Position numbers: made by a program. DNA of 64,000 nucleotides from Elusimicrobiota bacterium (GTDB lineage: Bacteria; CG03; SLGR01; JAFGSA01), in NCBI GenBank assembly GCA_016934855.1, contig JAFGSA010000046.1:26848-90847 (forward strand). The letters are read 5' to 3'. Shown in pieces: positions 9,001-12,000 of the stretch. Numbering within the stretch: the stretch's first letter is position 1; the number at the start of each line of letters is the position of its first letter.

Positions 9001-12000
9001 CCACTCCGTACAGGGACGCGGCCCTGCCCGGTACGTGTTCGTGTCCGAGTTTCCCGTTTGCCGACAACCTCTTCAGCTCTACGGCATATCTCCACATCTC
9101 GGTGTTATAATCGGCATAGAACCGGTATCCCAGCCTGAGCCCGGCTTCTATCAGCGCCAGCATAACAAGCGCTGAGACTGCCGCAAGGAGGATCTTTGTC
9201 GCCGTTTTCATATTCTGCTTTTATTCATCGGTTTTTTCATCGAAATACTTTTTCACGACGACCCGCGCGATATTTTCTGCCAATAACATGTTTCCCTTAT
9301 CCGTACAGTGGCCGAACTCCCCGGCATTCATATCCAGGAAATAAGCGTAATATCCTTCTTTTGCGACGGCATCCTTGAAAATCTGCTCATTATTAACGAA
9401 TGCCATATTATCTACGGATTCGAACAGTTCCTCCAGCGGCTTTACGCTCAACAGCGGGTACTGCACGCAGACAAGCACGATTCCCCTGGATCCTAGTATT
9501 TCCTTCATCATGTTATAATTGCCGTATGTCATCGGGTTGTAATAATGTTTTCTCAGCGCTTCCGCTATTCCGAAATGCCTTTCGGCAGGCACGTTTTCAC
9601 CGAGCATGAGGTAACATCTCGCCAGCGCGCCGTGGAAAACGTCATTATCCCGGAAAATATCCAGCGCGCGCCGGTACACTTGAGCCGCTTCCGCGTATCT
9701 CGACCGCTTCATGTAATAATCACCGAATATTATATACTGTATTCGTTTTTCGGGGTTTATTTCGAGGGCTTTTTCATACATCTCTTCCGCTTTTCCGTCC
9801 CGGGACTGTTTTTCATACACTAAAGCCAGGTCGCAATACAGCCTGCTCTCTGAAGGGTTAAGCCTAAGGGCCGTTTTATACATGTTTTCGGCTTTCCCAT
9901 ATTTCCCGAGTCCGGCATACAGCTCCCCCAGCAGGCTATTTGCTTCATAGTTACCGCTGTCCATGTCAATGCATTTTTTGAACAGCTCTTCAGCCCCGGC
10001 ATAGTTTCCCTGTCTATAAAACAGCTTCCCCGCCGATATGAGTTCCCCGCAATCCCGCGCCTTGCCGGATTCCGGCTGCCCCTTATGTCTTCCACCGTGA
10101 GCTTCGTCCGCCATCATACCCGTGGGATATATATCGGGGTCCTCACCGAGTCCCGCTGCGCCTTCAGGCGGTTTATGCCGCGCTGATGAAAGCTGCCCGC
10201 CGAACGCGCGGAATAATTTATATATCCGCAGCTTCCTGACCCAGGACAGATACCTGTTCAAACCACGGACTTCCTTTTCCTTCAGCCCGGAATAGTATCT
10301 GTCGTTAATACCCATCATGGCAATGACCATGTCCGGGCTGTATTTATCCAGATTATCTTCCAGCTGCTTTAAGATGATCTCTGAATTACCGCCCGCTACG
10401 CCTTTGTCTATGACGCTGAACCTTATGCCCGTTTTCCGGCTGTTCAGGATTTCTTCCAGCAGAGGAGGCCACTGATCGGCGGTTGTCGACTCGCCCACGC
10501 ACATAATCCGGTACGTTCCTCTGCTTCCGGCAGATACTCTGTATTTATAATCTTTTATCAGTCCGTATACCGCCCCCCCCACCCTCAGTCCCGACTCCAG
10601 CAGTATCATACTGAGCAGTATCCCGGCAAACACCAGGCCGAGTTTTTTGATTAAGGAAATTTTATCGCGCATCTGATCCTCTGCTGTCCGGCAGAACCTG
10701 CTGCCGCTGCCGGCGTCAGCCGTTTCGGTCCGGCTGACTAAATACCATTATAATCACTTATCCCGCCTTTTACCAATAAGATTCTTATTTAAATTACCGG
10801 ATGCCCCTGTTCCCGGCAATCCAGCCGCTGCTTGAAATTATAGCCTCATTTCCAGCCGGCAGCATTTTTATTGACAACACCCGGGCATTATGCTAAATTT
10901 CATTTGACATCATATATTGAGAATAGACCTAATAGCCTTATTATAGAATACACAACCCGCGATGCATATATTACTGATTAATCCCCCGGACGAACTGGGT
11001 TACGCGCTCGGCGTCGGAATGGAATTCATACAGAGATACGAGCCGCTGGGATTACTATATATTGCCGCTGTCGCGCGGGAAACAGGGCACCATGTCACAG
11101 TGATCGACGCTTATGCCCGAAACATGGGCCCGGATGAACTGAAAAAAGAGATACTCTCCATAAAACCGGATATAGTAGGGATCACTACGTTTACCTGCAG
11201 CGGCGCCGTCGTCTTTGAGCTGGGACAGTGGCTGAAAAAAACCCTGCCGGGATCCATGGTCGTTCTGGGCAATGTCCATGCCTCCGCCTACGCGAAACAA
11301 TATCTGGAGAACAGATGCTGCGATATCGTCGTTCACGGCGAAGGAGAATATACCTTTCTGAAAATAATAGAGTATTTCGACAAAAAATGCCGTATAGAAG
11401 ATATACCGTCTGTTTCTTTTATCGGCAGCGGGGGAAATGCCGTCCAGACATCTTCTGAAGGATTCATCGAAGACCTCTCAGGGCTGCCCGTCCCGGCCAG
11501 GGACCTGCTTGACCAGGGACTGTACCGACCCTCTCCCATCAGCAATCAGATGTTCGTGCCAGGGAAGAACAGCCAGGTCAAAACGATGATCACTTCCAGG
11601 GGTTGCACCAACCGGTGTACTTTCTGCGCGGTACACCGCAACCGGAAGATAAGATTCAACGATGCCGTTTCGGCCGTAAACGAGATGGAGATCCTGGAAA
11701 AGAAATACGGCGCTTCCTACATTTATATAATGGACCCCGCGTTCCTCTCCGACCGGAATAGAATCCGCGACATATGTTCCGAGATCAGGAAACGGAATCT
11801 GAAAATACGGTGGGGCTGCGATGCCCACGTGAGCCAGATCACGCCGGAACTCGTAAAAGAGATCGACGGCGCCGGCTGTTATGAGCTCTCCCTGGGTATA
11901 GAATCAGGAAACCAGGAATCCCTGGACAGGATAAATAAGGGATGCACCATATCTGGGATAGAGAATGCAGTAGCTGCCATAAAAGACAATTCGGATATTT

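What the first reader, a model, noticed from the sequence alone, without database searches (positions are those of the whole stretch)
9221..10672. Unusual architecture: SGNH-hydrolase fold split by an inserted TPR array, present in about 7 anchored paralogs
- **Architecture.** In 9221..10672 the SGNH blocks I (CVGESTTADQW), II and III (MMGINDRY) are followed by roughly 200 aa of TPR repeats. Only after that comes block V (GEFGHCTDKGN) and the C-terminus.
- **Other copies.** The same split architecture recurs in 18481..20391 (about 10 TPR repeats), 25242..26753, 44769..46214, 23713..25053 and 49323..50828.
- **Conserved features.** All copies have an N-terminal signal anchor followed by a conserved L-E-x-x-L-R motif. 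Several carry non-canonical block I variants (GES, GAS or GGS instead of GDS). Most keep the Ser; in 9221 block V has Glu in place of the canonical Asp (GEFGH), whereas 18481 and 44769 retain GDFGH.
- **Implication.** A TPR module inside the catalytic domain implies that a protein- or glycan-binding scaffold is integrated into an acyl-esterase or O-acyltransferase, compare the SGNH domains of OatA, PatB and AlgX.
- **Novelty.** I am not aware of a characterised SGNH enzyme with an intradomain TPR insertion.
Basis: seen in the sequence. Interest (0 to 1): 0.75.

Follow-up and report, generated by a model that had tools for sequence, protein, structure and literature searches.

The report
SGNH esterase interrupted by TPR array
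The gene encodes a membrane-anchored serine esterase-type enzyme whose single catalytic fold is split by an inserted array of protein-binding TPR repeats; this layout is real and uncharacterised, but it belongs to a large family in Omnitrophota and Elusimicrobia and is a variation on known enzyme designs.

Summary
ORF 9221..10672 (-) encodes 483 aa in this order: N-terminal anchor, SGNH blocks I-III, about 40 disordered residues, five TPRs, then the rest of the SGNH fold with block V.

- **Insertion.** Homologues without TPRs align to both halves with one gap at the TPR site.
- **Family size.** The N-terminal 165 aa alone finds 1,709 50%-identity clusters at E<=1e-10. These are mainly Omnitrophota and Elusimicrobia MAGs, named only "TPR protein".

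- The window has 10 anchored SGNH paralogs, 6 with TPRs.
- Four carry the array between block III and strand 4. Two (23713, 49323) carry two TPRs at a different site, between strands 4 and 5.
- Domain insertion in SGNH has a precedent (Ape1 CBM35), and so does SGNH plus TPR (TviD).
- No MBOAT/AT3 acyl-donor partner is present, so an acyltransferase role is unsupported.

Most likely this is a periplasm-facing envelope-glycan esterase with a TPR docking arm. The function is inferred, not shown. It is a new variant of a known kind, of moderate interest.

The parts
9221..10672 (-). Whole gene: 483-aa anchored SGNH enzyme with an intradomain TPR array. Identical to NCBI MBN2407359.1, 'tetratricopeptide repeat protein', Elusimicrobia MAG.
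10574..10642 (-). N-terminal hydrophobic anchor and juxtamembrane helix (aa 11-33) carrying the invariant E26-x-x-x-R30
   Evidence: Family alignment. Positive-inside count: 3.2 K/R before the helix against 1.3 after it. Model helix aa 7-50.
10298..10516 (-). SGNH N-terminal half (aa 53-125): strands 1-3 with block I (C58-x-G-E-S62-T-T), block II (G91) and block III (G121-x-N123-D124)
10178..10279 (-). Two hydrophobic and basic helices after block III (aa 132-165). Conserved in the family and present in TPR-less paralogs. Low model confidence.
10052..10177 (-). Low-confidence, probably flexible linker (aa 166-207) tethering the N-terminal end of the TPR array
   Evidence: pLDDT below 50 for aa 166-202. 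Variable in length and sequence.
9551..10051 (-). Inserted TPR array: ten helices, about five repeats (aa 208-374)
   Evidence: Pfam TPR_1, TPR_2 and TPR_19 at E 1e-21. Model pLDDT above 90. This is the gap in TPR-less homologues.
9245..9535 (-). SGNH C-terminal half (aa 380-476): helix, strand 4 (VCVQYP), strand 5, block V (D447 ... G-E452-F-G-H455-C456) and the C-terminal helix
18481..20391 (-). Paralog of the same family and same insertion site, with about 9-10 TPRs (636 aa)
   Evidence: P0065
44769..46214 (-). Paralog of the same family and same insertion site (481 aa)
25242..26753 (-). Divergent paralog with the same insertion site (block III to strand 4). It has GDS in block I, a degenerate block III and EDGHC in block V.
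23713..25053 (+). Member of a different anchored SGNH family. Two TPRs are inserted between strand 4 and strand 5. Block I is GAS.
49323..50828 (-). SGNH paralog with two TPRs at the strand 4/strand 5 site plus extra TPRs after the C-terminus. Block I is GGS.
   Evidence: Pfam coordinates. Sequence.
8237..9211 (-). Uninterrupted anchored SGNH paralog, immediately downstream of the target (9-nt gap)
58944..59822 (-). Uninterrupted anchored SGNH paralog (CVGEST block I) that aligns end to end with the TPR-deleted family profile
62256..63314 (-). Uninterrupted anchored SGNH paralog

Best explanation
**What it is.** The gene encodes a type II (N-in) membrane-anchored SGNH/GDSL serine hydrolase that faces the periplasm.

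**Catalytic core.** There is one alpha/beta/alpha catalytic domain. It carries the nucleophile Ser62, the oxyanion-hole residues Gly91 and Asn123, and the general base His455. The supporting acid is either Glu452 (the canonical DxxH position, variable in the family) or the invariant Asp447.

**The insertion.** The chain leaves the core after block III and two short helices. It then crosses a flexible linker of about 40 residues and forms five TPRs. It re-enters the core through a 5-residue connection into the helix before strand 4. The TPR array is therefore fixed to the catalytic domain at its C-terminal end and only tethered at its N-terminal end.

**How I infer it works.**
- The enzyme removes, or less likely transfers, O-acyl groups on an envelope glycoconjugate made by the neighbouring, often overlapping genes. 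These encode GT-C/ArnT-like glycosyltransferases, GT2 enzymes, DegT aminotransferases and radical SAM enzymes.
- The TPR arm, whose repeat number varies in the family from 0 to more than 10, docks the enzyme onto a partner protein or polymer. This is what the separate TPR protein AlgK does for the SGNH protein AlgX, and what the TPR tail of TviD does for TviE.
- The invariant E-x-x-x-R in the anchor helix suggests contact with a membrane partner or a lipid-linked substrate.

**Shown versus inferred.** The architecture, the single fold, the insertion sites and the conservation of catalytic residues are shown. Topology, substrate, direction of the reaction and the role of the TPRs are inferred.
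For: **Architecture and single fold**
- Pfam finds the SGNH N-terminal part followed by TPRs. After removal of the TPR segment, the GDSL match extends across the junction to profile position 147.
- The AF2 model has five strands in SGNH order with ten TPR helices between strand 3 and strand 4.
- The TPR-deleted family profile aligns end to end with the uninterrupted paralog 58944 (hhalign probability 98.6%, E 1e-15).

**It is an insertion**
- The TPR-less homologues L001 (about 326 aa) and L003 (about 308 aa) are 35-37% identical to the target over both halves, with a single gap at the TPR site. L040 has about 1.5 repeats there.
- The block I to block V distance ranges from 220 to 576 aa in 74 family ORFs.

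**Catalytic competence**
- S62, G91 and H455 are invariant and N123 is at least 90% conserved in 42 homologues.
- Across 74 ORFs, the residue 3 before the His is D in 63, N in 7 and H, S, E or Y in one each. The residue 8 before the His is D in 72 of 74.

**Topology.** K/R counts are 3.2 before the hydrophobic helix and 1.3 after it across the family.

**Genomic context**
- The SGNH genes abut or overlap rSAM, GT-C and DegT genes by 4-8 nt, with Pfam identities.
- A related locus carries four family paralogs with PAP2, GT2, PMT_2 and sulfatase/EptA-like genes.
- 14 of 35 long loci carry a GT-C, GT2, B12-rSAM or DegT gene within 8 kb.
- Other recurrent neighbours are envelope genes: Wzm/Wzt-like ABC transporter, carbamoyltransferase, YkuD and PAP2.

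**TPR as a docking module for SGNH glycan-modifying enzymes.** TviD (PMC8760489) and the AlgK-AlgX paper (PMC9734138), known to me only from its title and abstract.
Against: - No biochemical data exist for any member.
- The substrate is unknown, and genomic context is only partly conserved: 21 of 35 long loci show none of the glycan genes of the window.
- Position 452 (the canonical Asp of DxxH) is not conserved, so the triad is atypical.
- The Pfam GDSL score of the intact protein is barely above threshold (33.0 against 32.9).
- Model confidence is low for aa 126-202. I could not inspect coordinates or PAE, so the position of the TPR arm relative to the active site is unknown.
- Topology rests on a charge count only. 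No dedicated predictor was available, and a cleavable signal peptide cannot be excluded.
Confidence: 0.6

Rival explanations
1. It is an O-acyltransferase rather than an esterase. On this reading the periplasmic SGNH domain takes an acyl group from a membrane acyl-translocase, or from a lipid donor, and places it on a glycan, as PatB, OatA-C, AlgX/AlgJ and OafA do. The TPR arm would hold the polymer or the export machinery.
For: - The N-terminal anchor and the invariant intramembrane E-x-x-x-R would suit hand-over from a membrane partner.
- The SGNH-plus-TPR precedents found are acetyltransferase systems: TviD and AlgK-AlgX (PMC9734138, abstract only).
Against: - No MBOAT or AT3/Acyl_transf_3 protein is found in the 64-kb window, nor among the recurrent neighbours in 78 related loci.
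- The best structural matches are hydrolases.
- Pfam gives no ALGX or DltD match at E <= 0.01 on the TPR-deleted sequences.
Confidence: 0.28
2. It is a non-catalytic scaffold or pseudo-enzyme. The SGNH core has lost activity (non-canonical GES, Glu instead of Asp in block V) and the protein acts only as a TPR adaptor anchored in the membrane.
For: - Non-canonical block I (GES).
- Variable residue at the DxxH acid position, including N, H, S and Y.
- Every database name calls it just 'TPR protein'.
Against: - Ser62, Gly91 and His455 are invariant, and Asn123 is nearly so, across homologues that are only 37-44% identical overall. This is not expected for a dead active site.
- Glu for Asp in block I or V is conservative.
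- SGNH enzymes that work as Ser-His or Cys-His dyads are documented (discussion in PMC8760489).
Confidence: 0.05
3. It is a cytoplasmic, TviD-like acetyl-CoA-dependent O-acetyltransferase. The hydrophobic N-terminus and the TPRs would only mediate membrane association on the inner face.
For: TviD combines an SGNH-like domain with TPRs and is membrane associated. Many neighbouring genes encode cytoplasmic enzymes: rSAM, DegT, GT2.
Against: - The positive-inside count puts the N-terminus in the cytoplasm and the rest outside.
- TviD has a Cys nucleophile, lacks blocks II and III, and has its TPRs appended at the C-terminus. Here Ser and blocks II and III are conserved, and the TPRs are internal.
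- Sequence searches did not connect the two.
Confidence: 0.05
4. The N- and C-terminal segments are two unrelated half-domains, or the product of a mis-assembled or fused gene. The block V assignment would then be spurious.
For: Pfam alone gives no hit to the last 100 aa of the intact protein. BLASTP of that segment against an uninterrupted paralog is not significant.
Against: - hhalign gives an end-to-end match after TPR removal.
- TPR-less homologues are collinear with both halves.
- Hundreds of independent metagenomic homologues share the same order.
Confidence: 0.02

Closest known systems
Peptidoglycan O-acetylesterase Ape1 (Neisseria, Campylobacter): SGNH with an inserted CBM35
   Same: - One SGNH catalytic fold is interrupted by an accessory binding domain.
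- The enzyme is periplasmic and acts on an envelope glycan.
- The inserted domain helps catalysis and substrate binding.
   Different: - The insert in Ape1 is a beta-sandwich CBM35 placed early in the fold, between residues 87 and 228 of CjApe1, before block II. Here the insert is an alpha-solenoid TPR array placed after block III.
- Ape1 has a cleaved signal peptide rather than an anchor.
- There is no detectable sequence relationship beyond the superfamily.
TviD, Vi-antigen O-acetyltransferase (Salmonella Typhi, Bordetella)
   Same: An SGNH-type domain and TPRs sit in one polypeptide that acts in surface polysaccharide modification. In TviD the TPRs mediate membrane association and binding to the partner glycosyltransferase TviE.
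   Different: - The TviD TPRs are appended C-terminally, not inserted.
- TviD uses Cys18/His253, lacks recognisable blocks II and III, and acts on the cytoplasmic side.
- There is no sequence similarity to this family.
AlgK-AlgX (and the PelB, PgaA and BcsC TPR scaffolds) of synthase-dependent exopolysaccharide systems
   Same: A periplasmic TPR scaffold is coupled to an SGNH-fold polymer-modifying enzyme (PMC9734138, title and abstract; discussion).
   Different: - There the TPR and the SGNH domain are separate proteins, and the TPR protein is an outer-membrane lipoprotein or porin fusion. Here both lie in one inner-membrane-anchored chain.
- No alginate, Pel, PNAG or cellulose synthase genes are in the window.
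Carbohydrate esterase family 3 and generic GDSL_2 esterases (for example C. thermocellum Ces3, PDB 2vpt)
   Different: - These esterases are compact domains of about 200 aa with no insert and no membrane anchor.
- Sequence identity is 16%.
- This family has the block I motif C-x-G-E-S-T-T and the block V motif F-G-H-C.
PatB / OatA C-terminal domain (peptidoglycan O-acetyltransferases)
   Different: - They depend on an MBOAT (PatA) or a fused AT3 domain, and none is found here.
- They have no TPRs.
Leptospira LA_2486 / LA_2490 SGNH/GDSL-type esterase families (NCBIfam, hypothetical equivalogs)
   Same: There is weak sequence similarity to the uninterrupted anchored paralog 8237 and to 25242.
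   Different: Scores are far below the family cut-offs (22-31 bits against 300-325). These families are themselves uncharacterised, and the target protein does not hit them.

Membership tests
SGNH/GDSL hydrolase superfamily (Pfam Lipase_GDSL_2, PF13472) | Block I G-D-S with the nucleophilic Ser at the end of strand 1 | tested here: met
   C58-V-G60-E61-S62-T-T. G60, E61 and S62 are invariant in 42 homologues. The Asp is replaced by Glu.
SGNH/GDSL hydrolase superfamily (Pfam Lipase_GDSL_2, PF13472) | Block II Gly and block III G-x-N-D (oxyanion hole) | tested here: met
   G91 and G121 are invariant. N123 and D124 are at least 90% conserved.
SGNH/GDSL hydrolase superfamily (Pfam Lipase_GDSL_2, PF13472) | Block V D-x-x-H | tested here: inconclusive
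   His455 is invariant. The residue 3 before it is Glu in the target and varies in the family: D 63, N 7, and H, S, E or Y once each, out of 74 ORFs. Asp 8 residues before the His is nearly invariant, 72 of 74.
SGNH/GDSL hydrolase superfamily (Pfam Lipase_GDSL_2, PF13472) | Three-layer alpha/beta/alpha fold with a five-stranded parallel sheet | tested here: met
SGNH/GDSL hydrolase superfamily (Pfam Lipase_GDSL_2, PF13472) | Profile score above Pfam's gathering threshold | tested here: met
   33.0 bits against a cut-off of 32.9 for the intact protein. 35.7 bits after TPR removal, and all 14 spliced homologues match. The margin is thin.
SGNH/GDSL hydrolase superfamily (Pfam Lipase_GDSL_2, PF13472) | Esterase or acyltransferase activity | not testable with these tools
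   Needs an enzyme assay.
Tetratricopeptide repeat (Pfam TPR_1, TPR_2 and related) | Tandem 34-residue helix-turn-helix repeats scoring above the family thresholds | tested here: met
   TPR_2 75.5 bits and TPR_1 75.4 bits against cut-offs of about 27. Ten helices at aa 208-374 with pLDDT above 90. PDB profile hits to consensus TPR proteins.
PatB/OatA/OafA-type SGNH O-acetyltransferases | A partner or fused membrane acyl-translocase (MBOAT such as PatA, or an AT3 domain) | tested here: not met
   No MBOAT or Acyl_transf_3 match in any window ORF scanned, nor among the recurrent neighbours in 78 loci.
AlgX/AlgJ and DltD families of anchored SGNH-like proteins | A match to the family profiles (Pfam ALGX, DltD) | tested here: not met
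   Only Lipase_GDSL_2, NonGDSL, DUF459 and Lipase_GDSL are found at E <= 0.01 on the TPR-deleted sequences.
TviD family | Cys nucleophile, no blocks II and III, TPRs appended C-terminally, cytoplasmic location | tested here: not met
   Here there is a Ser nucleophile, blocks II and III are conserved, the TPRs are internal and there is an N-in anchor. TviD features are from PMC8760489.
Ape1-type SGNH with an inserted CBM35 | A CBM35 beta-sandwich inserted after the first helix of the SGNH fold | tested here: not met
   The insert here is all-helical TPR and lies after block III.

The most novel reading that the evidence does not exclude
The TPR-interrupted SGNH proteins would be the periplasmic tailoring component of an undescribed envelope-glycan system. 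That system would be built from repeated GT-C / radical SAM / SGNH cassettes in Omnitrophota and Elusimicrobiota.

On this reading:
- The TPR arm has evolved independently at two loops of the fold and varies from 0 to more than 10 repeats. It would act as a length-tunable docking arm or ruler that decides which partner or which layer of the envelope each paralog reaches.
- The invariant intramembrane E-x-x-x-R would engage a lipid-linked substrate or a membrane partner.
Probability: 0.15. Interest if true: 0.65.

Novelty: new variant of a known kind. Interest (0 to 1): 0.42.

Why it matters
- **Annotation.** The work separates a large, uncharacterised enzyme family from the mass of proteins named "TPR protein". 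The N-terminal 165 aa alone finds at least 1,700 clusters at 50% identity.
- **Domain evolution.** The SGNH fold tolerates a long solenoid inserted at two different loops, and the repeat number changes freely.
- **Biology of uncultured phyla.** In Omnitrophota and Elusimicrobia, whose envelopes are essentially unstudied, these multi-copy enzymes sit with ArnT-like glycosyltransferases and radical SAM enzymes. They are handles for finding out what surface glycoconjugates these bacteria make.
- **Engineering.** A catalytic domain with a built-in, length-variable TPR arm is a natural example of scaffold-enzyme integration.
- **Limits.** The mechanism is an extension of known SGNH and TPR biology, and nothing here overturns current understanding.

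Tried and rejected
- **PDB profile search with the full-length alignment.** It returned only TPR proteins and said nothing about the catalytic part. Repeating it with the TPR columns removed gave weak GDSL hits.
- **BLASTP of the target against the uninterrupted paralog 58944.** It aligned only the N-terminal half significantly. The C-terminal relationship needed a profile comparison and structure.
- **Amphipathic membrane-surface helix.** I considered this for the helix after block III (aa 139-165). The hydrophobic moment is low (0.1-0.2), so I dropped the idea.
- **Recent DNA-level duplication in the TPR arrays.** None was found, so the arrays in this window are old at the DNA level.
- **An obligatory conserved partner gene.** None was found. 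The commonest neighbour, a radical SAM-SPASM protein, occurs in only 14 of 78 loci. No MBOAT or AT3 appeared.
- **NCBIfam.** It has no specific model for the family, only sub-threshold TPR equivalogs.
- **Foldseek against AFDB50.** The library was unavailable.
- **Model coordinates.** They could not be read in Python. As a result, the Cys58/Cys456 distance, the TPR-to-active-site geometry and the packing of E26/R30 could not be measured.
- **L068.** I first read it as a full-length member with 17 or more TPRs. Its ORF is cut by the contig end, so only the C-terminal half preceded by about 570 aa of TPR is certain.
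Full report
**1. The observation**

ORF 9221..10672 (minus strand) encodes a 483-aa protein. The Pfam results are as follows:
- Lipase_GDSL_2 profile positions 2-107 of 178 match aa 59-152. The score is 33.0 bits, just above the 32.9 cut-off.
- A dozen TPR families match aa about 210-345, with E down to 1e-21.
- Nothing matches the last 100 residues.

The protein is identical to NCBI MBN2407359.1, "tetratricopeptide repeat protein", from an Elusimicrobia MAG contig of 172 kb.

**2. Is it one interrupted SGNH fold?**

Four independent lines of evidence say yes.

(a) An AlphaFold2 model was built on 42 homologues (mean pLDDT 81, pTM 0.68). Its elements run in this order:
- strand 1: aa 53-59
- strand 2: aa 84-89
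- strand 3: aa 115-120
- two low-confidence helices: aa 132-165
- a disordered stretch: aa 166-202
- ten TPR helices: aa 208-374, pLDDT above 90
- a helix: aa 380-395
- strand 4: aa 399-404
- strand 5: aa 423-426
- the C-terminal helix: aa 458-476

(c) I cut the TPR columns out of the family alignment to make A3.
- The Pfam GDSL match then continues across the junction to profile position 147, and all 14 spliced sequences match.
- A weak PDB alignment places "dfGHCtdkGNrllaeniA" on block V of the acetyl xylan esterase 7ddy.
- hhalign aligns the spliced profile end to end with the uninterrupted paralog 58944..59822: columns 6-262 against residues 4-286, probability 98.6%, E 1e-15.

(d) Natural TPR-less members exist. 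The ORFs in L001 (about 326 aa) and L003 (about 308 aa) are 35-37% identical to the target across both halves. They show a single gap exactly where the TPRs lie. L040 has about 1.5 repeats there.

**3. Anatomy of the family**

In 42 full-length homologues that are 37-44% identical to the target, the following residues are invariant:
- E26 and R30, inside the N-terminal hydrophobic helix
- C58, G60, E61, S62 and T64 (block I)
- G91 (block II)
- G121 (block III)
- Q404-Y405-P406, after strand 4
- N428 and D447
- G451, F453, G454, H455 and C456 (block V), and G460

N123, D124, K459 and N461 are at least 90% conserved.

The canonical DxxH acid position (452) is not conserved. Among 74 family ORFs in fetched loci it is D in 63, N in 7, and H, S, E or Y once each. 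The target carries E. Asp 8 residues before the His is present in 72 of 74. Block I is always C-[LVI]-G-E-S-T-T.

The segment between the two halves varies from 167 to 308 aa in the 42 aligned sequences. The block I to block V distance varies from 220 to 576 aa in the 74 ORFs, which corresponds to 0 to about 10 repeats. Proteins of up to 788 aa occur.

The TPR array joins the core directly at its C-terminal end (aa 374 to 380). It is linked by a low-confidence stretch of about 40 residues at its N-terminal end. This is how a linear solenoid can be accommodated in a loop.

**4. Topology**

Across the family the 15 residues before the hydrophobic helix carry on average 3.2 K/R (net +2.7). The 15 residues after it carry 1.3 (net +0.3). 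By the positive-inside rule, the N-terminus is cytoplasmic and the SGNH-TPR body lies outside the cytoplasmic membrane. This is an inference. No dedicated predictor was available.

**5. The other copies in the window**

The window holds ten anchored SGNH paralogs.
- 9221, 18481 (636 aa, about 9-10 TPRs) and 44769 belong to one family.
- 25242 is a divergent relative with the same insertion site.
- 23713 and 49323 differ:
  - Their GDSL match continues to profile positions 141 and 130 before the TPRs, and a block V match follows the TPRs.
  - 23713 belongs to a separate family of about 420-aa proteins, with 105 hits in Omnitrophota, Endomicrobiaceae and Thermodesulfobacteriota, some named GDSL esterase.
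  - Its AF2 model (pLDDT 90, pTM 0.88) places four helices (two TPRs, aa 293-385) between strand 4 (aa 275-280) and strand 5 (aa 389-391). It also has a small N-terminal beta subdomain (aa 60-85).
- 8237, 58944, 62256 and the truncated 63319 have no TPRs.

TPRs have therefore been inserted at two different loops of the SGNH fold in paralogs of one gene cluster. The E-x-x-x-R motif in the anchor helix is shared by both families (E26/R30, E41/R45 in the consensus). It is also present in the plain paralogs 8237 and 58944, though not in 62256.

**6. Distribution**

- The full-length search found 396 hits at E <= 0.001 among the 8,000 candidates scored. The best 120 have E below 1e-90, and most cover the full length.
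- The N-terminal 165 aa alone were searched against 1.84 billion cluster representatives. They find 3,288 proteins at E <= 1e-3 and 1,709 at E <= 1e-10, mostly 400-770 aa long.
- In one genome per species of GTDB, 464 stretches were confirmed. Among the 78 loci kept, most are Omnitrophota, with some Elusimicrobia and Margulisiibacteriota, and MAGs labelled Planctomycetes or Patescibacteria.
- 11 of 35 long loci carry two to six copies.
- Source names are "tetratricopeptide repeat protein" or, from JGI, "PilF/lysophospholipase L1-like esterase".

**7. Genomic context**

In the window the SGNH genes sit in repeated cassettes and abut or overlap their neighbours by 4-8 nt:
- GT-C 20512 > rSAM 22266 > SGNH 23713
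- GT-C 30999 > rSAM 29499 > rSAM 27997 > DegT 26750 > SGNH-TPR 25242
- rSAM 46211 > SGNH-TPR 44769
- SGNH-TPR 18481 > GT-C-like 16868 > rSAM 15291
- SGNH-TPR 9221 > SGNH 8237

They cover B12-binding radical SAM, PMT_2 (ArnT-like GT-C), GT2, DegT, asparagine synthase, YdjC and LPG_synthase_TM.

Elsewhere the association is recurrent but not obligatory.
- 14 of 35 long loci hold a GT-C, GT2, B12-rSAM or DegT gene within 8 kb.
- One locus combines four family paralogs with PAP2, a methyltransferase, GT2, PMT_2 and two sulfatase/EptA-like genes.
- Another locus shows two tandem copies among unrelated genes.
- The commonest neighbours in 78 loci are: radical SAM-SPASM (14), 7TM histidine kinase (9), B12-rSAM (8), carbamoyltransferase (7), GT2 (6), YkuD (6), divergent PAP2 (6) and Wzm/Wzt-like ABC transporter (5).
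- No MBOAT or AT3 protein was seen anywhere.

**8. Mechanism**

Shown:
- a complete and conserved SGNH catalytic apparatus (Ser62, Gly91, Asn123, His455);
- an N-terminal anchor;
- a TPR array inserted in a surface loop, with variable repeat number;
- co-operonic envelope-glycan genes.

Inferred:
- The protein is a periplasm-facing esterase acting on an envelope glycoconjugate or lipid-linked intermediate. An acyltransferase role is less likely.
- The TPR arm docks a partner protein or polymer, by analogy with TviD-TviE and AlgK-AlgX.
- E26 and R30 contact a membrane partner or a lipid-linked substrate.

My confidence that the architecture is as described is about 0.9. My confidence that the function is as stated is about 0.35-0.4.

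**9. Comparison with what is known**

- Insertion of an accessory domain in the SGNH fold is documented for Ape1. Its CBM35 lies between residues 87 and 228 of CjApe1 and contributes to catalysis.
- SGNH plus TPR in one chain is documented for TviD, but there the two are in tandem. TviD also has a Cys nucleophile and is cytoplasmic.
- Full-text searches for SGNH with tetratricopeptide, and for Omnitrophota with radical SAM, glycosyltransferase and TPR, returned no description of a TPR array inside an SGNH domain or of this family.
- NCBIfam has no model for it.

The finding is therefore a new variant of a known kind: a known fold, a known accessory module and a known principle of intradomain insertion. 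The combination and the insertion sites are new, and the family is large and unnamed.

**10. Verdict**

The architecture and the lack of a characterised precedent hold. The claim that all six copies share the same split, the implied uniqueness and the acyltransferase analogy do not hold. Interest is moderate, at 0.42.

Noticed in passing
window 2121..62259 (whole window): The window is an unusually dense paralog farm. It holds 17 B12-binding radical SAM genes plus one small radical SAM, 6-7 GT-C/PMT_2-like membrane glycosyltransferases and 4 GT2. It also has 2 DegT aminotransferases, an asparagine synthase, a YdjC and an LPG_synthase_TM protein. These form repeated cassettes (GT-C > rSAM(s) > SGNH) with 4-8 nt gene overlaps. 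The product of the cluster is unknown.
   Followed up: partly
window 10583..10597 (aa 26-30 of 9221..10672); also the anchor helices of 23713, 25242, 49323, 8237 and 58944: An invariant E-x-x-x-R pair lies inside the N-terminal hydrophobic helix. It is shared by two different anchored SGNH families (E26/R30 and E41/R45) and by the plain paralogs 8237 and 58944. A charged pair conserved within a membrane anchor suggests a functional contact with a partner or a lipid-linked substrate. I know of no description of it.
   Followed up: partly
window 9221..10672: aa 58, 402 and 456: Three cysteines are conserved in the family: Cys58 (four residues before the nucleophile), Cys402 (in strand 4) and Cys456 (immediately after the catalytic His). 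They may form a disulfide or be redox sensitive.
   Followed up: no
L001 7971..8948 and L003 6560..7483: The two TPR-less members of the family have also lost the Asp three residues before the catalytic His. They read AEHFGHC and ATSFGHC. Both keep the Asp eight residues before the His.
   Followed up: partly
window 60664..62259 (-): This B12-binding radical SAM protein ends in a tail that looks like a TPR (LNLGYYYRSRNDIGRAAECFERYLALDPDNK). TPR modules may therefore be attached to several enzyme types in the cluster. I did not check this with a profile at a permissive threshold.
   Followed up: no
window 614..2023 (-) and 16868..18565 (-): These are multi-pass membrane proteins of 469 and 565 aa. 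Neither has a Pfam or NCBIfam match, even at E <= 1. 16868 overlaps the SGNH-TPR gene 18481 and resembles the GT-C paralogs in its layout.
   Followed up: partly
window 3863..4927 (+): This 354-aa protein has only a weak PP-loop/HUP match (DUF7411 at E 2e-4, QueC at 0.04), around the motif SGGKDS. Its function is unknown.
   Followed up: no
window 23713..25053 (+), aa 60-85: The second anchored SGNH family has a small four-stranded beta subdomain between the anchor helix and strand 1 of the SGNH fold (AF2 pLDDT above 90). The 9221 family lacks it.
   Followed up: no
window 49323..50828 (-), aa about 413-463: This paralog has the two-TPR insert and, in addition, further TPRs after the end of the SGNH fold (Pfam TPR_19 and TPR_17). 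It combines internal and C-terminal TPR modules.
   Followed up: no
window 62256..63314 and 63319..63987 (-): Two plain SGNH genes lie in tandem. The second is cut by the end of the window, so its N-terminus is missing.
   Followed up: no
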